A DNA stretch of 59,014 nt, the filler included. It is 3 parts of 3 records of this genome, joined end to end, with 100 filler letters (N's around TTAATTAATTAA, not from the genome) between each part and the next. Parts side by side here need not be neighbours in the genome. Positions count along the whole stretch, not along the records: positions 31,122 to 46,921 come from SRR20825019_1388; 2 more parts are not named here. One strand, 5' to 3'. Of this stretch, positions 31,022-47,021 are shown piece by piece. A program made the translations under genes and the position numbers. Numbering within the stretch: position 1 is the stretch's first letter; each line of letters opens with the position of its first letter. Below the pieces are notes generated by a model. It was not told the origin of the DNA. It worked only from the letters and a program-made list of their open reading frames with translations, and did no database searches.

Positions 31022-31121
31022 NNNNNNNNNNNNNNNNNNNNNNNNNNNNNNNNNNNNNNNNNNNNTTAATTAATTAANNNNNNNNNNNNNNNNNNNNNNN
31101 NNNNNNNNNNNNNNNNNNNNN
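31022..31121. other. Artificial contig spacer
   Basis: N44-TTAATTAATTAA-N44, giving stops in all six frames. Confidence 0.99.
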
Positions 31122-31150
31122 AGGGTGATGAAGAGTGATGAAGGGTGATG
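31122..31150 (+). repeat. Short tandem repeat (AAGRGTGATG)x~3 at contig start
   Basis: agggtgatg aagagtgatg aagggtgatg. Confidence 0.7.
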
Positions 31151-31230
31151 AGCGCGAGCATCGAGAGCGTTCCCTGTACCAGGCTCTCTGTTATGCTGAA
31201 GGCGAGAAACGGGTAATCGACGGAGCCGAC

Positions 31231-32607
31231 ATGACGCAGAGCGAACAGGCGCAGAAAACAGAACTGCTGGCCGAGTTGGAGGCGACCCGCCAACGGACCT
31301 TTGAACTGGTGGACTCCCTCAGTGATGAGCAGCTTGAGGTGCCCTACCACCTGGGCGTGAACCCGCCACTTTGGGAAATGGGGCACGCGAGCTTTTTCTA
31401 CGAAGTGTTCGTTTTTAACCTTCTGGATGGAACCCCGAGCTACGATCCGTCCATGGATGACCTGTGGGATTCGTTTCACATTGATCATGGAGACCGTTGG
31501 AGTCGCAAACTCTTCCCCGGCCGTGAGCAAACCCTTCAGTATTTCAACACCATCTACGATCGTGTTGCGTCGCGCATCGCACAGCAACCACTGACCGACG
31601 AGGCCCTGTACCTCTATCGCTACGCCATTTATCACCAGCACATGCACATTGAGTCGATGACGTGGTGTCGGCAGACGGTTGCCCTGCCTGCTCCCCCCGG
31701 CATTGTTGGCGCCTTGCCAGAACGTGTGGAGCCTCTGCCCGGCGATGCACTCATCCCCGGCGGTCGCTACCAGATTGGAATGCCGGGCGAGTCTGACTGC
31801 TACGCCACCACCGACTTTGCCTTTGATGGGGAAAAGCCGCGTTTCGAAACCACGGTGGAGCCGTTTGCAATTTCCCGCACCCTTGTTTCCAACCGCGATT
31901 TCCTGGCGTTCGTTGAGGATGATGGCTACCGGCGACCTGAACTCTGGTCTTTCGGAGGACGCAAGTGGTTGAGTACCGAGACCGATACTGCCCTGGTGCA
32001 TGGCAGCTCCCAGCCAATGTTGCGGGAGCCCAGGCATCTACTTTACTGGCGCTGGCACGAGGGCGAATGGCAGGAGCGTGTGTTTGACCGCTGGCAGGCC
32101 CTGAATCTGGATGCGCCTGTCGTCCACGTCAGCTATTGGGAGGCCGAGGCCTATTGCCAGTGGGCCGGCCGCCGCTTGCCAACAGAAGTGGAGTGGGAGG
32201 CTGCGGCACTGGGTAACCGGATTGGCGAGGATTTTCGTCGTTTTCCCTGGGGGAATGAACGCCCAACACCCGACCATGCGGATCTCGACGCCACCCACAT
32301 GGCGCAGCAGCCGGTGTGGGATTATCCGGCGGGTGATAGCCGCTCCGGCTGTCGCCAGATGATCGGCAGTGTCTGGGAATGGACCAGCAGTCAGTTTCTT
32401 CCCTACGACGGATTCAGGGTCGATATGTACCCCTTTATGTCTACCTTGCAGTTCGGTGATCACAAGGTGACCCGGGGTGGTGGGTGTGCGACATCCTCAT
32501 GCCTGATCCGGGGCACTTACAGGCAAGCCTATCTGCCCCTTCGCAACGACGTGTACACCGGGTTTCGCACCTGTGCGCTGTCGGATTCGGCTTCTGGTAC
32601 ACGCTGA
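31231..32607 (+). CDS. ovsA: EgtB/SenA-family non-heme iron selenoxide/sulfoxide synthase (putative ovoselenol synthase OvsA)
   Basis: DinB-like N-terminus with NPPLWEMGH and HQHMH (3-His Fe site); FGE-sulfatase domain (RLPTEVEWE, GSVWEWT, RGG, GFR); start trimmed to ATG 31231 after GGAG. Confidence 0.7.
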   Translation: MTQSEQAQKTELLAELEATRQRTFELVDSLSDEQLEVPYHLGVNPPLWEMGHASFFYEVFVFNLLDGTPSYDPSMDDLWDSFHIDHGDRWSRKLFPGREQTLQYFNTIYDRVASRIAQQPLTDEALYLYRYAIYHQHMHIESMTWCRQTVALPAPPGIVGALPERVEPLPGDALIPGGRYQIGMPGESDCYATTDFAFDGEKPRFETTVEPFAISRTLVSNRDFLAFVEDDGYRRPELWSFGGRKWLSTETDTALVHGSSQPMLREPRHLLYWRWHEGEWQERVFDRWQALNLDAPVVHVSYWEAEAYCQWAGRRLPTEVEWEAAALGNRIGEDFRRFPWGNERPTPDHADLDATHMAQQPVWDYPAGDSRSGCRQMIGSVWEWTSSQFLPYDGFRVDMYPFMSTLQFGDHKVTRGGGCATSSCLIRGTYRQAYLPLRNDVYTGFRTCALSDSASGTR

Positions 32608-32617
32608 GGATCTTGAT

Positions 32618-33361
32618 ATGAATGTCTATGAAACCGACGAACTACTCGGGCAGTACCTGGGGTTCCATTTTGGTGAAAGCCATTTCGGAGTGGGAAATTA
32701 TCCCGCCCGCTGCGCCGGTATCTGCCAGGAGTTGATGGCAGGCCGGGATAAACGACGAGCGCTTGATCTTGGGTGCGCGGTGGGCCGAACCGCCTTTGAG
32801 CTTGGCCGGGTCTTTGACCATGTGGTGGGAGTGGACCTTTCCCGCCGGTTTATCGATGCGGCGACTACCCTGCAGAAGACCGGAGAGATCGATTACTTCC
32901 GCCGCGACGAAGGGGAACTTGGCGAACGCGTAACGGTGAGCCTGAATGCCCTGGGGCTCGACCGGGCGACGGAAAAAGTATCGTTTGCCACCGGCGACGC
33001 CAGCAACCTGGGGCCGGAACATGTGGATTATGACCTGGTCTTCGCGGGCAACCTGATTGACCGTCTTCAGGATCCGGGCGCCTTCCTGGAAAGCATCCAT
33101 AGACGCCTGGCTCTGGGCGGCACTCTGGTGATCAGCTCGCCCTATACCTTGATGGATGAATTCACCCCGATTGCCAACTGGATTGGCGGATACGAACGCA
33201 ATGGCCAGCCCTATACGGTCTATCAGGGTATGAAAGAGATACTCTCGCACCATTTTGAAGAGATACAGCCGCCCAGGGATGTGCCGTTTGTCATCCGGGA
33301 AACCCGCCGTAAATTTCAGCACACCATTGCGGAGCTCAGTGCCTGGCGTCGAACCCGGTGA
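32618..33361 (+). CDS. ovsM: Stand-alone OvoA-C-terminal-type SAM N-methyltransferase (putative OvsM)
   Basis: NVYETDELLGQY..FHFG, RALDLGCAVGR, NLIDRL..P, VPFVIRETRRKFQHT; GAGGA RBS. Confidence 0.75.
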   Translation: MNVYETDELLGQYLGFHFGESHFGVGNYPARCAGICQELMAGRDKRRALDLGCAVGRTAFELGRVFDHVVGVDLSRRFIDAATTLQKTGEIDYFRRDEGELGERVTVSLNALGLDRATEKVSFATGDASNLGPEHVDYDLVFAGNLIDRLQDPGAFLESIHRRLALGGTLVISSPYTLMDEFTPIANWIGGYERNGQPYTVYQGMKEILSHHFEEIQPPRDVPFVIRETRRKFQHTIAELSAWRRTR

Positions 33362-34003
33362 TCAGTCCCGGCGGGTAAAAAATGCTGTCTGGGTAGGGTG
33401 CCCAACGTCGGGTACGTAGTCTCCAATGCCTCCAAATCGCACGTCATAGCCGTTGCGCTCGGCCACACCACGGGCCCAGCGCTGGAACTTGGGCCTGTCC
33501 CATTCGAATTTGTGGTCTTCCTCGCGGAATTCACCCGGCGCCAGGTCGAACAGGGGGTTGTACTCCCGATTTGGCGTGGTCATGAACAGATACCCTGGCC
33601 GGTATTCCCCGAACACCGCGCGTTCCACCCTCGACAGCTGCTCTGGCCGGACATGTTCAATGGTTTCCACCATGGCGGCCGCATCGTAGCCGGTCAGGGC
33701 AGGATTGCTCTCGGCGTAGGAACCGCGGACCAGCCGGATCCTCGGCGTTTCTTCGCACAGGTATTCAGCGAGCACTGCACGGGCCTGCTGAAGAGACACG
33801 CCGGAATCCTCAAGGCCGGTTATGCTCTCGAACTGTGGGTCGGCAAGCATGCGGTAGAGCAGGGAGCCGGAACCGCAACCCAGGTCGAGTACACGCCTTG
33901 CCCCAGTCGACTTCAGGGTACGCAATACGAAATCCAGACGCTCCTCGTGGAGGGAGGTCATCTGGGTCATCATGCTGTTATCCGGAGCCTTGAGTTCGTG
34001 CAT
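33362..34003 (-). CDS. Hen1-type RNA 3'-terminal 2'-O-methyltransferase, catalytic domain only
   Basis: LHEERL, VLDLGCGSG, ETIEH, TTPNREYN, FREEDHKFEW, PTQ motifs; 213 aa, no Hen1 N-terminal domain. Confidence 0.85.
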   Translation of the reverse strand: MHELKAPDNSMMTQMTSLHEERLDFVLRTLKSTGARRVLDLGCGSGSLLYRMLADPQFESITGLEDSGVSLQQARAVLAEYLCEETPRIRLVRGSYAESNPALTGYDAAAMVETIEHVRPEQLSRVERAVFGEYRPGYLFMTTPNREYNPLFDLAPGEFREEDHKFEWDRPKFQRWARGVAERNGYDVRFGGIGDYVPDVGHPTQTAFFTRRD

Positions 34004-35577
34004 CAGGCTTTTGCGTTCTCCGTTGGTGATGGTGCCTGGCCGTCGCGATGCAACACCTGGCTTGCCAGGGCGACGCCGGTTTCGCTCATGGTCAGGTAAG
34101 CCTCGTCCGCACCCGCTTCGCGAATTCGCTCTGCTTCGTCGGCGTACAGGGTATGCGCCACAATATAGCCGGTGAAGCCCTTTTTCCGAAGGTTTCTGGC
34201 GGCGATCAGTTTGCCTTCGATGTCACCCATGGCAAGGATGACGGCTTCAACCGCGGGCATGTGCAGCCCCTGCCAGAAAGAGATGTCCTCCGCGTCACCA
34301 AAGACCACGTTGCGTCCTTCCTTCTGGTGTTTTTCCACCTTTGCCGGGTCGGAGTCAAGCGCCTTGATCAGTGGCTCCTCACGAGCAAGCTGGTCATAGG
34401 CGGCTGAGCCGGTACGGCCCATACCCATCACCAGTAATCTGGTGTTGCCCAGGGAGATCGGTTGTTCGTCGGGGTGGCGCCGCTGGCTCTCAAAGGGAGC
34501 CAGACGGGCACTGAGGCGCTCATAGACCGTGTGGGAAAGCCGGTTCACGGGGGCAGACACCACGAAGGACAGTGCCACGGTGATGGCCAGGGGGACCAGC
34601 CACTCCGGCAGGGCGACACTGGCCACGATAAGGCCAAATTCACTGTAGTTGGTCAGTGACAGGGCGCTCAGGAAACTGCTGTGAGAGCGCAGGCGGAAGG
34701 CCAGCAACAGGAAGAAAAACAGCACCCCTTTCAGGGGCACTACCAGCAGCGCTACGGCTGCAAACAGCAATGCCTCGCTATCCGGCAGGCCGCCAATGCC
34801 GATCTGAAGGAAAAAGCCCACAAGGAACATTTCCTTTACGCTCCAAAGCGATTTGGCCAGTTCCTGGGCGCGTGGATGATTGGCCAGCATGGCGCCAAGC
34901 ACCAGGGCGCCAAGCTCCGAGCTCAGCCCCACTGCTTCAAAACCGAGCCCGCCAAGAACCAGAGCCAGTAGGAGCCCGAGCAGAACCAGCAACTCATCGT
35001 GACCACTAGCATCCAGCAGTTTGAACAGCAGTGGTCTGAGCAGGGGCAGGCCAAAGATGATCAGCGCCCACTGGGAGGGCGTCTGGCCGGCGGCCAGACT
35101 CATCACCACGAGGGCAATCAGATCCTGCATGATCAGGATTCCGATGGCGACACGCCCATGGAAGGCTCTCAGTTCACGCTTTGTTTCCAGCACCTTGGCG
35201 GCCAGCACGGTACTGGAAAAGGAGAGTGCGATGGCGAGCAGAAATGCAGTCTGCCACGTGAGTTCCATCAGCAGGTAGAGGCCGGGGGTAAACACCGCAC
35301 AGGTGATGCCAAAGTGAAGCAGGCTGCCGCCGATGACTTCAGGGCTGATGATGGAACGTAGCTTCAGCTTCAGGCCAACGGTAAACAGCAGCAACAGGAC
35401 GCCCAGGTGGGCGATGTGTTCAAGAACATCGGTAGCTTCAATGGCCAGGTCAGTGGCGGCGGAGAGACCGCTCAGCACAAACCCTGCTGCCAGGTATCCC
35501 ACCAGGGGCGGCAGGCCAATGGCTTTGACCGTCAGGCCGAGGACAAAGGCAAAGGATATCCATAGTGCTTCGGGCAT
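34003..35577 (-). CDS. CPA2 cation:proton antiporter (KefB/KefC-like) with TrkA-N domain
   Basis: LPPLVGYL, LLFTVGLKL, SFSSTV, ILIMQD, SEFGLI, GMGRTG, FGDAED. Confidence 0.92.
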   Translation of the reverse strand: MPEALWISFAFVLGLTVKAIGLPPLVGYLAAGFVLSGLSAATDLAIEATDVLEHIAHLGVLLLLFTVGLKLKLRSIISPEVIGGSLLHFGITCAVFTPGLYLLMELTWQTAFLLAIALSFSSTVLAAKVLETKRELRAFHGRVAIGILIMQDLIALVVMSLAAGQTPSQWALIIFGLPLLRPLLFKLLDASGHDELLVLLGLLLALVLGGLGFEAVGLSSELGALVLGAMLANHPRAQELAKSLWSVKEMFLVGFFLQIGIGGLPDSEALLFAAVALLVVPLKGVLFFFLLLAFRLRSHSSFLSALSLTNYSEFGLIVASVALPEWLVPLAITVALSFVVSAPVNRLSHTVYERLSARLAPFESQRRHPDEQPISLGNTRLLVMGMGRTGSAAYDQLAREEPLIKALDSDPAKVEKHQKEGRNVVFGDAEDISFWQGLHMPAVEAVILAMGDIEGKLIAARNLRKKGFTGYIVAHTLYADEAERIREAGADEAYLTMSETGVALASQVLHRDGQAPSPTENAKA

Positions 35578-35682
35578 GGGTCACTTCACGGTTTAGAAAC
35601 AAGGCTCTGGCAAGGCTACCGTGTTTCCGTCGGGCCGTGTAGTCAAAACTGACTTGTCGTGCCAGTTATCACGCGTTGGCGA

Positions 35683-36630
35683 TCACTTTCCCTGGCCGGT
35701 GGCGGTTGCGACGAACTCGCGGAACAAGCGTGCGGATTCTTCTGGCACCTCGACCATGGGGGCGTGGCCGACGCCTTCCAGAAGCACTTTACGGGCATCT
35801 GGGATTCGCTCGACGAACACATCAGCGTTGCGATAATTGATCACCCGGTCTTCCATACCCCAGACCACCAGAACCGGTGCCTGGATGCGGGTGATGGCAT
35901 TGCGGAAGTCATCCTCGTAACCGGTATCCCGGATGGCATCGAAAATCACTTCGTTGACGTCGCGGTTGGCAATGGCCTTCTCTTCCATGACGTCGTAAAT
36001 GGGCCAGGGCACGAAGGGTTTCTTCTCCAGCGCAAAATCAACCAGGCGTTCAAAGTCGCCCTCCTGGGAGGGGATCAGCGGATTGTCACCGCCCATGACC
36101 AGGCTGACCAACTCGCTGTCGTACTCAAAAATTCCCGCCGGATCAAAGAGGGTGGCGGTGAGGATCTGGTCCGGGTAGGTCGCTGCATAGAGAGCGGTGA
36201 TGGCGCCGCCCATGGAGTTGCCCATCATGTGCGCTCTCTGGACGCCCAGAGCATCGAGAATCCTCGACAGGTGCCTGACCTGATCCTCGAATCGATATCC
36301 CAGGTCCAGCTCCTTGCTGCTGTCACCATGGCCGGGCAGGTCGATGGCGTAAACGTTGAACTCATCCGTCAACTGCCGCGCCAGTCGGGTCCAGTTGTCC
36401 TTGTTGGCGCCAAAGCCATGGACGAGCACGATGGTGTCGCCGTCCACCGGCTCTGCATTGCTCAGGTAGGCAATGGTCATCTCACCAACGGTGATACTGG
36501 ATTCCTCCAGCCCGGCACTGGAGCGTTCCCAGCCAATGGCGTTGTCATACAGAGCCTGGCGGGAACAGGCACTGATCATCAAGGTGATGATCAGTATTGA
36601 GAGGGTCGACAGGACAGATCGTTGAGCCAT
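35683..36630 (-). CDS. Alpha/beta hydrolase (lipase), probable lipoprotein
   Basis: Lipobox ISAC, HGFG, GNSMGG nucleophile elbow, GHAPMVE; start trimmed to MAQRSVL. Confidence 0.9.
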   Translation of the reverse strand: MAQRSVLSTLSILIITLMISACSRQALYDNAIGWERSSAGLEESSITVGEMTIAYLSNAEPVDGDTIVLVHGFGANKDNWTRLARQLTDEFNVYAIDLPGHGDSSKELDLGYRFEDQVRHLSRILDALGVQRAHMMGNSMGGAITALYAATYPDQILTATLFDPAGIFEYDSELVSLVMGGDNPLIPSQEGDFERLVDFALEKKPFVPWPIYDVMEEKAIANRDVNEVIFDAIRDTGYEDDFRNAITRIQAPVLVVWGMEDRVINYRNADVFVERIPDARKVLLEGVGHAPMVEVPEESARLFREFVATATGQGK

Positions 36631-36674
36631 CAGAGCGTTCCTTGCGAAGAGTGGGCAGATTCGGGCCTGCGCTA

Positions 36675-37961
36675 TCAGGTGTTTTCCCTGGCAATCGCGC
36701 GATAGGCAATGTCCTTGCGATAGAAGGCACCGTCCCATGAAATGCGCGCAGCTACCTCGTAGGCGCGCTTCTGTGCCTCCGTGACGGTATTGCCCAGGGC
36801 CGTGGCGCACAGCACTCGTCCACCGTTGGTAGCCACCTGTTCCCCGTTCAAACGGGTACCGGCGTGGAAGACCTTCTCGCCCTCGGTTTCCGATTCTGGC
36901 AGCCCGGATATGACGTCGCCCTTGTTGTAGCTGCCAGGATAGCCGCCCGCAGCCAGCACGATGCCCACGGAAGCGCGCTCGTCCCAGTCTGAACGGCACT
37001 GGTCAAGCTTGCCGTCAATGGCAGCCCCGCAGAGTTCCACCAGATCCGATTTCATCCGCAGCATGATGGGCTGGGTTTCCGGATCGCCAAAGCGGCAGTT
37101 GAATTCAATGACCTTGGGGGTACCTTCGCCATCGATCATCAGGCCGGCGTACAGGAAACCTTTGTAGGGGTGGCCTTCCGCGGCCATGCCGCGCACGGTG
37201 GGATAGATTACTTCGTCCATGATTCGCTTATGGACATCCTGAGTGACCACAGGAGCCGGGGAGTAGGCCCCCATGCCACCGGTATTCGGACCAGTGTCAC
37301 CGTCGCCCACACGCTTATGGTCCTGGGAGGTCGCCATGGGTAATACGTGCTCGCCATCTACCATGACGATAAAGCTGGCTTCTTCGCCATCCAGGAATTC
37401 CTCAACCACGACGCGGTTGCCTGCATCACCAAAGGCGTTACCGGCCAGCATGTCGCGGATGGCGTCTTCCGCCTCCTTCAGCGTCATGGCAACAATCACG
37501 CCTTTGCCCGCAGCCAGGCCATCGGCTTTCACCACGATGGGTGCGCCCTGCTTGCGTACATAATCCAGTGCCTGGTCCACGTCGGTGAAATTGGCGTAGG
37601 CGGCGGTGGGAATGTTCTGGCGATCCAGAAAGTCCTTGGTGAAGGCCTTGGAGCCTTCCAGCTGTGCGGCACCGGCACTGGGGCCGAACACCCGCAAACC
37701 ACGCTCTTCGAACAGGTCTACAATGCCATCAACCAGCGGCGCCTCGGGGCCGACAATGGTCAGTCCCACGTTATTGGCCGCGGCAAAGTCCGCCAGGCCG
37801 TTGAGATCCATCACGTCAATGTTGATGTTTTCCAGGCCTGGCTCGCGGGCGGTGCCGGCGTTGCCGGGGGCAACAAACACCCGGTCAGCGTCCGGTGATT
37901 GAGCGGCTTTCCAGGCCAGTGCGTGTTCGCGTCCGCCGGAGCCTATAACAAGAATATTCAT
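36675..37961 (-). CDS. purD: Phosphoribosylamine--glycine ligase
   Basis: GSGGREHAL, KADGLAAGKGV, GPNTGGMGAY, EFNCRFGDPETQ. Confidence 0.98.
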   Translation of the reverse strand: MNILVIGSGGREHALAWKAAQSPDADRVFVAPGNAGTAREPGLENINIDVMDLNGLADFAAANNVGLTIVGPEAPLVDGIVDLFEERGLRVFGPSAGAAQLEGSKAFTKDFLDRQNIPTAAYANFTDVDQALDYVRKQGAPIVVKADGLAAGKGVIVAMTLKEAEDAIRDMLAGNAFGDAGNRVVVEEFLDGEEASFIVMVDGEHVLPMATSQDHKRVGDGDTGPNTGGMGAYSPAPVVTQDVHKRIMDEVIYPTVRGMAAEGHPYKGFLYAGLMIDGEGTPKVIEFNCRFGDPETQPIMLRMKSDLVELCGAAIDGKLDQCRSDWDERASVGIVLAAGGYPGSYNKGDVISGLPESETEGEKVFHAGTRLNGEQVATNGGRVLCATALGNTVTEAQKRAYEVAARISWDGAFYRKDIAYRAIARENT

Positions 37962-46921: not shown

Positions 46922-47021
46922 NNNNNNNNNNNNNNNNNNNNNNNNNNNNNNNNNNNNNNNNNNNNTTAATTAATTAANNNNNNNNNNNNNNNNNNNNNNN
47001 NNNNNNNNNNNNNNNNNNNNN
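46922..47021. other. Artificial contig spacer
   Basis: N44-TTAATTAATTAA-N44. Confidence 0.99.

What the first reader, a model, noticed from the sequence alone, without database searches (positions are those of the whole stretch)
33362..35577. Orphan minimal Hen1 RNA methyltransferase translationally coupled to a K+-type antiporter, with no Pnkp
Seen: a 213-aa protein keeps the Hen1 SAM-binding and metal-binding motifs (DLGCG, ExxEH, TPNxEYN, DHKFEW) but lacks the N-terminal domain. Its ATG overlaps the CPA2 stop (TGATG), and no pnkp or ligase gene is nearby. Known: characterised bacterial Hen1 works in a Pnkp-Hen1 RNA-repair complex that needs that N-terminal domain, whereas animal Hen1 is catalytic-domain-only and protects small-RNA 3' ends. 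Inference: a repair-independent bacterial RNA 3'-end methylation activity with unknown substrates; one of the best candidates here for an undescribed system.
Basis: partly seen in the sequence, partly recalled or inferred. Interest (0 to 1): 0.72.

Follow-up and report, generated by a model that had tools for sequence, protein, structure and literature searches.

The report
Stand-alone bacterial Hen1 RNA methyltransferase
A Marinobacter genome carries a short, intact copy of the enzyme that caps RNA 3' ends with a methyl group, without the RNA-repair partner it normally works with in bacteria, so its target RNA is an open question.

Summary
ORF 33362-34003 (-) encodes a 213-aa protein that is only the catalytic half of bacterial Hen1 (TIGR04074 positions 254-462, E 2.5e-61). 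Its SAM motif and four metal ligands are intact, and its model matches the Hen1 crystal structures (TM 0.90). Its ATG overlaps the stop of a CPA2 antiporter gene.

It is not a recent truncation. It belongs to a separate methyltransferase-only branch (36 of 132 tree rows, support 98) and is under purifying selection (dN/dS 0.04-0.09). Pnkp, the Hen1 N-terminal domain, Piwi and RtcB were not found in the closest complete genome (a proxy, 99.2% identical). Pnkp was found in 0 of 81 sampled genomes of the genus, while a control genome scored 1380 bits.

The CPA2 link is local. The transporter is in 73 of 81 genus genomes and Hen1 in 27. None of 36 loci outside the Marinobacter synteny group has it nearby.

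Most likely this is a Pnkp-independent RNA 3'-terminal 2'-O-methyltransferase with an unknown substrate. It is a new variant of a known kind and of moderate interest.

The parts
33362..34003 (-). Short (213-aa) Hen1-type RNA 3'-terminal ribose 2'-O-methyltransferase, catalytic domain only
   Evidence: ORF. TIGR04074 matches profile positions 254-462 of 462, E 2.5e-61. PDB sequence hits: 3jwh E 4.5e-45, 3jwg 2.4e-42, human 5wy0 1.3e-30. AlphaFold model pLDDT 95.4; Foldseek top hits 3jwg and 3jwh with TM 0.90-0.91 normalised to the target. SAM motif and E113/E116/H117/H164 are invariant in 36 short-branch sequences.
34003..35577 (-). CPA2-family monovalent cation:proton antiporter with a C-terminal TrkA_N (RCK) domain. 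It is the upstream neighbour in the same operon-like arrangement, and probably not functionally tied to Hen1.
   Evidence: Pfam Na_H_Exchanger 1.7e-33 and TrkA_N 1.8e-19. NCBIfam KefC/KefB/YbaL-like hits are far below their cut-offs. An orthologue is present in 73 of 81 sampled genomes of the genus.
34001..34005 (-). One-base overlap of the CPA2 stop codon and the Hen1 start codon (TGATG)
   Evidence: Read directly. The same -1 overlap occurs in 18 of 30 related loci with CPA2 upstream, and an 8-base overlap in 7 more.

Best explanation
The 213-aa protein is an active, stand-alone member of the Hen1 methyltransferase family. Like the excised C-terminal domain of Clostridium thermocellum Hen1 and like animal HENMT1, it should bind SAM through the DLGCG motif and an acidic residue (E65). 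It should hold a divalent metal (Mn2+ or Mg2+) with E113, E116, H117 and H164. The metal would bind the 2',3'-diol of the last ribose of a single-stranded RNA, and the enzyme would transfer the methyl group to the 2'-OH.

It works without Pnkp and without any ligase-activating N-terminal domain, so it does not mark a repair junction. It probably caps free 3' ends of some cellular (or invading) RNAs, which would make them resistant to 3' exonucleases, tailing or attack through the 2'-OH.

It belongs to an old methyltransferase-only branch, scattered patchily (probably by horizontal transfer) through Gammaproteobacteria and beyond, with no fixed partner gene. In one Marinobacter lineage it was placed directly behind a core CPA2 antiporter gene and is probably co-translated with it. 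That is a matter of expression, not of shared function.

Shown here: family, fold, active-site conservation, branch structure, absence of the repair partners, and the genus-limited CPA2 synteny. Inferred: catalytic activity, RNA as the substrate, and the physiological role.
For: - Family and fold: TIGR04074 C-terminal half, E 2.5e-61. PDB Hen1 methyltransferase domains at E 4.5e-45 to 6.4e-42, then human HENMT1 at 1.3e-30 and plant HEN1 at 1.2e-24; the best non-Hen1 chain is at 6.7e-4. The model has pLDDT 95.4. The ten best Foldseek hits are all Hen1/HEN1 (E 8e-23 to 2.5e-17), and the next family is at 4.5e-11.
- Active site: 19 columns are invariant in 36 short-branch sequences with 36-56% identity to the query, among them G42 C43 G44 G46, E113 E116 H117, H164 F166 E167 W168. 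The four metal ligands align with human E132/E135/H136/H181 as named in PMC10781085 (passages read).
- Selection: dN/dS is 0.036-0.092 in 11 informative pairwise comparisons of 12.
- Not a truncation: a branch with SH-aLRT 98 separates 36 rows (35 short, 1 with an N-terminal extension but no Hen1_L) from 96 rows, 77 of which are long or carry Hen1_L.
- No partners in the proxy genome: best Pnkp hit 80 bits against a cut-off of 750, phosphoesterase part only. Hen1 profile positions 1-249 matched nowhere. No Hen1_L and no Piwi. No RtcB or PNKP_ligase in 5 of 5 Hen1-positive genomes of the genus (nothing rang in the PNKP_ligase controls, but TIGR04075, which contains the ligase domain, worked on the control G365).
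- Genus and class samples: Pnkp in 0 of 81 genomes of the genus and in 0 of 4 other gammaproteobacterial genomes with short Hen1. The one genome with full-length Hen1 (G365) has Pnkp at 1379.8 bits six bases downstream, and Hen1_L at 346 bits.
- In a sample of 400 genomes of the class, 6 carry the short type and 1 the full-length type.
Against: - No activity or substrate was tested.
- The whole-genome absences come from a proxy strain and from species representatives, not from the window's own genome.
- Hen1's nearest relatives outside the family are small-molecule O-methyltransferases such as UbiG (PMC1397878, passages read; UbiG is the second NCBIfam hit). A non-RNA diol substrate is therefore not excluded.
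- Motif II has E where most relatives have D.
- No conserved neighbour points to RNA. Contexts are mixed: ArfB-like in 6 loci, helicases in 4, Macro in 3, otherwise metabolic genes.
- The gene is patchy (27 of 81 in the genus), so it is dispensable.
- The tree is a quick LG+G4 search with no bootstrap and no root. Eight short and 10 mid-length rows fall among the long ones and were not examined.
Confidence: 0.6

Rival explanations
1. The enzyme keeps the Hen1 active site but methylates a small molecule with a ribose cis-diol (a nucleotide, NAD or ADP-ribose derivative, or a signalling nucleotide) rather than an RNA end.
For: Hen1's closest outside relatives are small-molecule O-methyltransferases: UbiG is the second NCBIfam hit at 1.6e-8, and PMC1397878 argues for descent from a UbiG-like enzyme (passages read). 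Some neighbours handle nucleotides or ADP-ribose: Macro domain in L061, L062 and L066; NUDIX in L069 and in the Comamonas plasmid; a nucleoside monophosphate kinase there too. No RNA-binding accessory domain is present.
Against: All 19 invariant positions of the short branch are also conserved in the two crystallised bacterial Hen1 domains. Of the positions I read in the human enzyme's alignment (the SAM motif, the four metal ligands, TPN and DHKFEW), all are conserved there too. That argues for the same substrate. The isolated Hen1 methyltransferase domain and animal Hen1 act on single-stranded RNA without accessory domains (PMC6158503, passages read; bacterial data recalled from Jain and Shuman 2010, not held).
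Confidence: 0.2
2. It is still an RNA-repair component, working with an unlinked or unrecognised end-healing and sealing enzyme instead of Pnkp.
For: Variant repair complexes exist in which Hen1 partners with separate proteins (Pnkp1-Rnl-Hen1, PMC4411300, passages read). In a few genomes short Hen1 lies next to defence-type genes: PDC-S41 helicase at 887.7 bits overlapping its start in L168, Mrr plus PIN in L167, and GajB-like helicases in L062 and L080.
Against: The domain that contacts and activates the ligase is absent from the protein and from the proxy genome. No Pnkp, PNKP_ligase or RtcB was found in the genomes searched. No ligase or kinase recurs next to short Hen1 in the loci scanned (36; 4 of 5; L085 and L091). 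Other RNA ligase families (Rnl1/Rnl2-type, LigT) were not searched.
Confidence: 0.1
3. Hen1 and the CPA2 antiporter form a functional two-gene module, for example salt or K+ stress adaptation in which the methyltransferase acts on or with the transporter.
For: Stop and start overlap in the window, and by 1 or 8 bases in 25 of 30 related loci with CPA2 upstream. The two genes are adjacent in 24 of 27 Hen1-positive genus genomes, in both orders. Many close homologues come from organisms whose names suggest saline habitats (my reading of the names, not tested).
Against: CPA2 is present in 48 of 54 Hen1-negative genus genomes. Hen1 is present without CPA2 in 2 genomes and 475 kb away from it in 1. 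None of 36 loci outside the synteny group has a CPA2 homologue within the locus or a Na_H_Exchanger among 131 flanking ORFs. Nor do 4 further genomes or a plasmid.
Confidence: 0.05
4. It is a decaying remnant of a full-length hen1 with no function.
For: It lacks half of the classical protein and is patchy in the genus (27 of 81).
Against: dN/dS is 0.04-0.09. The catalytic residues are invariant across a deep branch. All 27 genus copies are open frames of 205-293 aa with no stop. The branch is separated from the long forms with support 98.
Confidence: 0.02

Closest known systems
C-terminal methyltransferase domain of bacterial Hen1 (Clostridium thermocellum, Anabaena variabilis; PDB 3jwg, 3jwh, 3jwi, 3jwj) of the Pnkp-Hen1 RNA repair system
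   Same: Same fold (TM 0.88-0.91 normalised to the target, 39-41% identity). Same SAM motif, same four metal ligands, and the same TPNxEYN and DHxFEW motifs. Expected to share the chemistry: metal-dependent 2'-O-methylation of the 3'-terminal ribose.
   Different: No N-terminal Hen1_L domain and no Pnkp in the genome searched. It lies on a separate branch of the tree. It therefore cannot activate a ligase or mark a repair junction in the known way.
Animal HENMT1 / Hen1 (human 4xcx, 5wy0), the piRNA 3'-end methyltransferase
   Same: The catalytic domain stands without RNA-measuring domains, as in the enzymes that PMC6158503 reports acting on single-stranded RNA in vitro (passages read). Sequence match E 1.3e-30 and TM 0.76-0.81. 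The metal ligands align.
   Different: No C-terminal extension of the kind said to mediate PIWI contact: the protein ends 2 residues after the domain. No Piwi-domain gene was found in the proxy genome. It is closer in sequence to bacterial Hen1 than to the animal enzymes.
Pnkp1-Rnl-Hen1 complex of Capnocytophaga gingivalis (PDB 4xrp; PMC4411300)
   Same: Shows that Hen1 can work with partners other than classical Pnkp.
   Different: That Hen1 is 436 aa with an N-terminal domain and matches the query only weakly (E 9.9e-12). No such partners were found here.

Membership tests
Hen1/HEN1 RNA 3'-terminal 2'-O-methyltransferase catalytic domain | Rossmann-fold SAM-binding motif I (xDLGCGxG) and an acidic residue at the end of strand 2 | tested here: met
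   VLDLGCGSG at 38-46. G42, C43, G44 and G46 are invariant in 36 short-branch sequences. Position 65 is E where most have D.
Hen1/HEN1 RNA 3'-terminal 2'-O-methyltransferase catalytic domain | Four metal ligands (Glu, Glu, His in ExxEH; His in DHxFEW), as in human E132/E135/H136/H181 and plant E796/E799/H800/H860 | tested here: met
   E113, E116, H117 and H164 are invariant in the short branch and align to the human and bacterial motifs. The ligand list is from PMC10781085 (passages read).
Hen1/HEN1 RNA 3'-terminal 2'-O-methyltransferase catalytic domain | Hen1-type fold, with the two short metal-binding helices added to the methyltransferase core | tested here: met
   Model pLDDT 95.4. The ten best PDB matches are all Hen1/HEN1, with TM up to 0.91. 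The two helices were not inspected individually.
Hen1/HEN1 RNA 3'-terminal 2'-O-methyltransferase catalytic domain | Methyl transfer to the 2'-OH of the 3'-terminal nucleoside of RNA | not testable with these tools
   Needs an enzyme assay.
Bacterial Hen1 of the Pnkp-Hen1 repair system (NCBIfam TIGR04074 equivalog) | Full-length match over the curated cut-off (340 bits) | tested here: not met
   207.6 bits, profile positions 254-462 only.
Bacterial Hen1 of the Pnkp-Hen1 repair system (NCBIfam TIGR04074 equivalog) | N-terminal ligase-activating domain (Pfam Hen1_L, PF12623) | tested here: not met
   Absent from the protein, from the window and from the proxy genome. The model works on control genome G365 at 346 bits.
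Bacterial Hen1 of the Pnkp-Hen1 repair system (NCBIfam TIGR04074 equivalog) | A pnkp gene next to it or elsewhere in the genome | tested here: not met
   Best Pnkp hit in the proxy genome is 80 bits against a cut-off of 750. Pnkp was found in 0 of 81 genus genomes at E<=1e-30. Control G365 scores 1379.8 bits. The window's own genome is not held.
Animal-type HENMT1 (PIWI-linked) | A Piwi/Argonaute partner and a C-terminal extension beyond the methyltransferase domain | tested here: not met
   No Piwi domain in the proxy genome, while the control rings in 2 known genomes. The protein ends at residue 213, 2 residues after the aligned domain.
MADS defence system, Mad2 methyltransferase (PADLOC PDLC04134) | Full-length match to the Mad2 model together with the other mad genes nearby | tested here: not met
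   Only 36.4 bits over profile positions 275-444 of 492, which is generic methyltransferase likeness. The neighbours are CPA2 and thiohistidine-type genes.

The most novel reading that the evidence does not exclude
Bacteria have a Pnkp- and Argonaute-independent pathway in which a minimal Hen1 2'-O-methylates the free 3' ends of particular cellular RNAs (small RNAs, tRNA fragments or rRNA ends). The methyl group would act as a protective or regulatory mark, perhaps under stress. The methyltransferase-only branch, rather than the repair-linked form, may then be the lineage from which eukaryotic small-RNA HEN1 enzymes arose.
Probability: 0.3. Interest if true: 0.75.

Novelty: new variant of a known kind. 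Interest (0 to 1): 0.5.

Why it matters
In bacteria, 3'-terminal 2'-O-methylation of RNA is known only as the 'immunising' step of Pnkp-Hen1 repair. In eukaryotes it stabilises small silencing RNAs.

A conserved, selected, partner-less Hen1 in free-living marine bacteria implies a third use of this chemistry, and nobody has looked for its substrates. The question is directly testable in culturable strains that carry the gene (Marinobacter salarius, M. algicola DG893) with periodate-based 3'-end sequencing.

In the class sample, the short form was found more often than the textbook form (6 versus 1 of 400 genomes). Annotation that transfers 'RNA repair' to such genes would therefore be misleading.

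Tried and rejected
- **Expression and co-transcription.** Eight RNA-Seq runs hold about 79% of the sampled words. Four were laid. All are assembled contigs of 0.65-18.8 kb that cover the stretch, and one contig bridges 32712-34851. The tool states that contigs cannot show transcription, strand or ends, and DNA may be present, so this gives no evidence either way.
- **Promoter and terminator scan of 32400-36200.** It found 2 promoter-like and 5 terminator-like sites, against 1.1 and 3.4 expected from shuffles. Nothing usable.
- **Metagenome scan for more short-branch contexts.** An 11-row alignment gave 80 loci, of which I took the 37 best (L085-L121). I classed them by ORF length: most are about 460-500 aa. 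Two ~850-aa downstream ORFs that I scanned (L086, L118) are Pnkp. Only L085 and L091 are truly short, and their neighbours are unrelated to each other (PAS histidine kinase; DUF2855 and a glutamate-synthase-like protein). L089 is a frameshifted long form. L100 and L106 are cut by the contig end.
- **Conserved partner gene.** All-against-all clustering of 2,607 ORFs from 80 loci found no cluster shared by the loci outside the Marinobacter synteny group, except Hen1 itself and its antisense shadow.
- **Defence-system membership.** PADLOC gives only a weak generic Mad2 hit. Phages hold 2 distant hits at 25% identity. Of 23 plasmid hits, 15 were listed: 11 are annotated as Hen1 (two of those rows also list Pnkp), 3 have no annotated feature, and one (Comamonas sp. 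C11) is a 229-aa 'methyltransferase domain-containing protein'.
- **Earlier notes of this scan.** Nothing on this sequence. The word search returned only Pnkp-linked or phage cases.
- **Literature.** Six successful searches listed no paper on a stand-alone bacterial Hen1, and 'Hen1' with 'Marinobacter' gave 0 papers. The key bacterial Hen1 papers (Jain and Shuman 2010, 2011) and Burroughs and Aravind 2016 are not held. Statements about them are recalled, and they may discuss short forms.
- **Not done.**
  - Placing eukaryotic HEN1 in the tree (no eukaryotic sequences were in hand).
  - Searches for Rnl1/Rnl2-type ligases, LigT, RtcA or Tpt1.
  - A complex prediction (no binding claim is made).
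  - A scan of the neighbours of L169.
Full report
**What is there**

One search lists two minus-strand ORFs: 33362-34003 (213 aa) and 34003-35577 (524 aa). One search shows that the stop of the second and the ATG of the first share one base (TGATG).

The 524-aa protein has a Na_H_Exchanger membrane domain and a C-terminal TrkA_N domain. It is a CPA2 antiporter of the Kef/YbaL kind, far below every equivalog cut-off.

The 213-aa protein matches NCBIfam TIGR04074 (bacterial Hen1) at E 2.5e-61, but only over profile positions 254-462 of 462. Its 207.6 bits fall below the 340-bit cut-off. Pfam sees only generic methyltransferase domains and no Hen1_L.

**Whose DNA it is**

No genome is held for the window. 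A scan of species-representative genomes found the same protein (100% amino-acid identity) in Marinobacter salarius R9SW1 (L001). The window is 99.19% identical to that record over 8,879 bases, with 68 mismatches and four single-base gaps. It is therefore a sister strain. All whole-genome statements below rest on R9SW1 (handle G001) and on other species representatives, not on the window's own genome.

**Is it a real Hen1 catalytic domain?**

- Sequence: the best solved relatives are the methyltransferase domains of Anabaena and Clostridium thermocellum Hen1 (E 4.5e-45 to 6.4e-42). Next come human HENMT1 (1.3e-30) and Arabidopsis HEN1 (1.2e-24). The next family, UbiG, is at 6.7e-4.
- Structure: an AlphaFold model built on 36 relatives has mean pLDDT 95.4. 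Its ten best PDB matches are all Hen1/HEN1 (Foldseek E 8e-23 to 2.5e-17; TM up to 0.91 normalised to the target), and the next family is at 4.5e-11.
- Active site: in an alignment of 36 short relatives with 36-56% identity to the query, 19 columns are invariant. They include G42 C43 G44 G46 (SAM motif I), E113 E116 H117 and H164 F166 E167 W168. These four acidic and histidine residues align with the metal ligands of human HENMT1, E132/E135/H136/H181, as named in PMC10781085 (passages read). The acidic residue of motif II is E65 where most relatives have D, a conservative change.
- Selection: pairwise dN/dS against 12 Marinobacter orthologues is 0.036-0.092 in the 11 informative pairs. The R9SW1 pair has two synonymous differences and no replacement.

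The gene therefore encodes a selected, catalytically intact enzyme.

**Is it a truncated or split classical hen1?**

I searched 1.84 billion cluster representatives. 2,808 proteins matched at E<=1e-3 and 224 at E<=1e-30. The best 150 mix proteins of about 200-260 aa with classical ones of about 450-500 aa, and the nearest long form has 49% identity.

I dropped 19 of the 150 that covered less than query residues 25-200 and built a tree of the remaining 131 plus the query (IQ-TREE quick search, LG+G4, SH-aLRT only, unrooted). One branch with support 98 separates two groups:
- 36 rows that include the query: 35 short, and 1 with an N-terminal extension but no Hen1_L.
- 96 rows, 77 of which are long or carry Hen1_L by Pfam.

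Eight short and 10 mid-length rows, plus one odd Cas1-fragment fusion, fall among the long forms. I took them for fragments or truncated gene calls but did not examine them. Several mid-length proteins do start inside Hen1_L. The short form is thus an old lineage, not a recent deletion.

**Partners**

In the proxy genome:
- The Pnkp model finds only two phosphoesterase-like pieces (best 80.4 bits, cut-off 750).
- The Hen1 model matches nothing at profile positions 1-249.
- Hen1_L and Piwi find nothing.

RtcB and PNKP_ligase find nothing in five Hen1-positive genomes of the genus. The RtcB control rang in 10 of 14 known genomes. The PNKP_ligase control rang nowhere, so that result alone is weak.

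Within the window, tblastn with two Pnkp proteins and a Hen1 N-terminal domain gave nothing better than E 0.37.

Across samples:
- In 81 sampled genomes of the genus, 27 have a Hen1 match. Every match covers only profile positions ~250-462, in open frames of 205-293 aa. None of the 81 has Pnkp at E<=1e-30.
- In 400 scored genomes of the class (401 sampled; one could not be scored), 8 have a match: one full length (G365, 677 bits), one N-terminal fragment at a contig end, and six of the short type.
- The method detects the classical system. In G365 Pnkp scores 1379.8 bits and starts six bases after Hen1, and Hen1_L scores 346 bits. Four other short-type genomes lack Pnkp, and four lack Hen1_L.

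**The CPA2 coupling**

Of the 80 related loci from species genomes, 44 share other flanking genes with the window (the Marinobacter synteny group). Among these 44:
- 30 have CPA2 directly upstream on the same strand.
- 5 have it directly downstream (order Hen1 then CPA2).
- 9 have no CPA2 in the locus.

Among the 30 with CPA2 upstream, the stop/start overlap is 1 base in 18 and 8 bases in 7. The others are -37 or -4 (depending on the start codon), +9, +46 and +46. One locus (L001) is not scorable because of a single-base gap in the record.

The other 36 loci come from, among others, Marinimicrobium, Saccharospirillum, Alcanivorax, Thiohalophilus, Wenzhouxiangella, Thioalkalivibrio and a Desulfobacteraceae MAG. 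None has a CPA2 homologue (tblastn E<=1e-10) or a Na_H_Exchanger domain among 131 flanking ORFs.

In the genus sample the CPA2 orthologue (73-99% identity) is in 73 of 81 genomes. Crossing:
- 25 of 27 Hen1-positive genomes have CPA2, and 24 have it adjacent (21 as CPA2 then Hen1, 3 as Hen1 then CPA2).
- One has it 475 kb away, and two lack it.
- 48 of 54 Hen1-negative genomes keep CPA2.

The transporter is a core gene, and an accessory methyltransferase sits beside it in one lineage. The overlap probably means co-expression in this strain. It does not argue for a shared function.

**Other contexts**

Outside the synteny group the neighbours vary by lineage:
- a convergent ArfB-like RF-1 protein in six loci (Alcanivoracaceae, Alcanivorax and one Gammaproteobacteria MAG);
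- a Macro-domain protein upstream in three;
- a UvrD-like helicase immediately upstream in two;
- isocitrate/isopropylmalate dehydrogenase, phosphoglucose isomerase, or hydrolase plus PrmB-like plus AroC sets in others;
- an RNase_H_2-superfamily protein and a DEAD-box helicase in the Desulfobacteraceae MAG.

Four further genomes gave:
- a PDC-S41 candidate-defence helicase (887.7 bits) overlapping the start of short Hen1;
- a PIN protein plus an Mrr-type restriction enzyme;
- RidA plus AcrB;
- one 425-aa ORF joining the Hen1 domain to DUF1499.

On a Comamonas plasmid, the annotated 229-aa homologue lies between a TraR/DksA zinc-finger gene and cfa and prfC. SulP and a universal stress protein lie upstream, a pair that also follows short Hen1 in L057.

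Nucleic-acid and stress themes recur, but nothing is conserved across the branch. All-against-all clustering of 2,607 flanking ORFs found no shared cluster.

**How it most likely works**

Established for the family:
- The four ligands hold a divalent metal that binds the 2' and 3' hydroxyls of the terminal ribose, and SAM donates the methyl group to O2' (PMC10781085, passages read).
- Animal Hen1, which lacks RNA-measuring domains, methylates 20-40-nt single-stranded RNAs promiscuously in vitro (PMC6158503, passages read).
- The excised C-terminal domain of C. thermocellum Hen1 is recalled to be active on its own with Mn2+ (Jain and Shuman 2010, not held).

Every catalytic feature is kept here. 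I therefore infer a Pnkp-independent RNA 3'-terminal 2'-O-methyltransferase that caps free 3' ends (confidence about 0.6). The substrate and the role are unknown. Protection from 3' exonucleases or tailing is the obvious candidate effect.

The main rival is a ribose-diol small molecule (0.2), given the family's kinship with UbiG-type enzymes (PMC1397878) and the occasional Macro and NUDIX neighbours. An unlinked repair partner (0.1), a true CPA2 module (0.05) and a dead remnant (0.02) are less likely, for the reasons given above.

**Novelty**

[quoted passage not shown] Six literature searches found no study of a stand-alone bacterial Hen1. The 2006 survey (PMC1397878) knew only six bacterial sequences. 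Three key papers could not be read and might mention short forms.

I rate this a new variant of a known kind. The chemistry and fold are known, but the partner-less bacterial lineage and its biological use are not described. Interest is moderate (0.5): a clear, testable open question about bacterial RNA 3'-end modification, without a surprising mechanism and without the 'system' that the CPA2 coupling suggested.

Noticed in passing
window 31135-33361 (+): Two overlapping plus-strand genes. One is a SenA/EgtB-like sulfoxide synthase (NCBIfam SenA 421.8 bits against a cut-off of 420; EgtB 277.5; DinB_2 plus FGE-sulfatase). The other is an OvoA C-terminal-type 4-mercaptohistidine N1-methyltransferase (298.6 bits against a cut-off of 170). 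Together they look like a split thio- or seleno-histidine pathway. The pair is convergent with short Hen1: the two stop codons abut at 33361/33362. It is the most conserved neighbour in the synteny group (SenA-like matched in all 44 loci, the methyltransferase in 35).
   Followed up: partly
window 31022-31065, 31078-31121, 46922-46965, 46978-47021: Four 44-base runs of N (masked stretches). The first pair interrupts the clpA-like ORF, which reads as a run of X.
   Followed up: no
L001 (M. salarius R9SW1) against window 37943, 36856, 36061, 34363: The published R9SW1 record lacks one base at each of four places relative to the window, inside the purD region (2), the hydrolase and the CPA2 gene. 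This breaks those frames in the record. They may be sequencing errors or real frameshifts; Hen1 is intact in both.
   Followed up: partly
protein P0172 (362 aa, metagenome cluster representative): The N-terminal ~100 residues match the start of Cas1 (PF01867, E 3.7e-18) and are followed by a Hen1 methyltransferase domain that groups with long Hen1 forms. It may be a chimeric gene call or a real fusion.
   Followed up: no
L165 4768-6045 (+): In one gammaproteobacterial genome the short-type Hen1 domain and a DUF1499 domain (E 8.3e-32) lie in a single 425-aa open frame.
   Followed up: no
L168 4818-7500 (-): A full-length PDC-S41 candidate phage-defence helicase (PADLOC 887.7 bits; Pfam SLFN-g3_helicase) overlaps the start of a short Hen1 by 20 bases. 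In L167 short Hen1 sits beside a PIN protein and an Mrr-type restriction enzyme.
   Followed up: partly
L170 (Comamonas sp. C11 plasmid NZ_CP101744.1) 2609-13460; L057 286-3937: On the plasmid, SulP, a universal stress protein, TraR/DksA, short Hen1, cfa, prfC, a diguanylate cyclase, an NMP kinase and NUDIX all lie on one strand. The SulP plus Usp pair also follows short Hen1 in a Porticoccus MAG. This hints at a stress-gene setting.
   Followed up: no
loci L034-L080 (record titles): Many of the closest non-Marinobacter homologues (60-71% identity) come from taxa whose names suggest saline or soda-lake habitats (Marinimicrobium, Saccharospirillum, Thiohalophilus, Thiohalomonas, Thioalkalivibrio, Wenzhouxiangella), plus one Desulfobacteraceae MAG at 63%. 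This suggests horizontal spread within such habitats. It is my reading of the names only.
   Followed up: no
window 35683-36999 (-): The 438-aa alpha/beta-hydrolase ORF overlaps the end of purD. The Pfam domain starts near residue 189, and an internal Met is followed by a hydrophobic stretch ending in Cys, so the true start is probably internal and the protein may be a lipoprotein.
   Followed up: no
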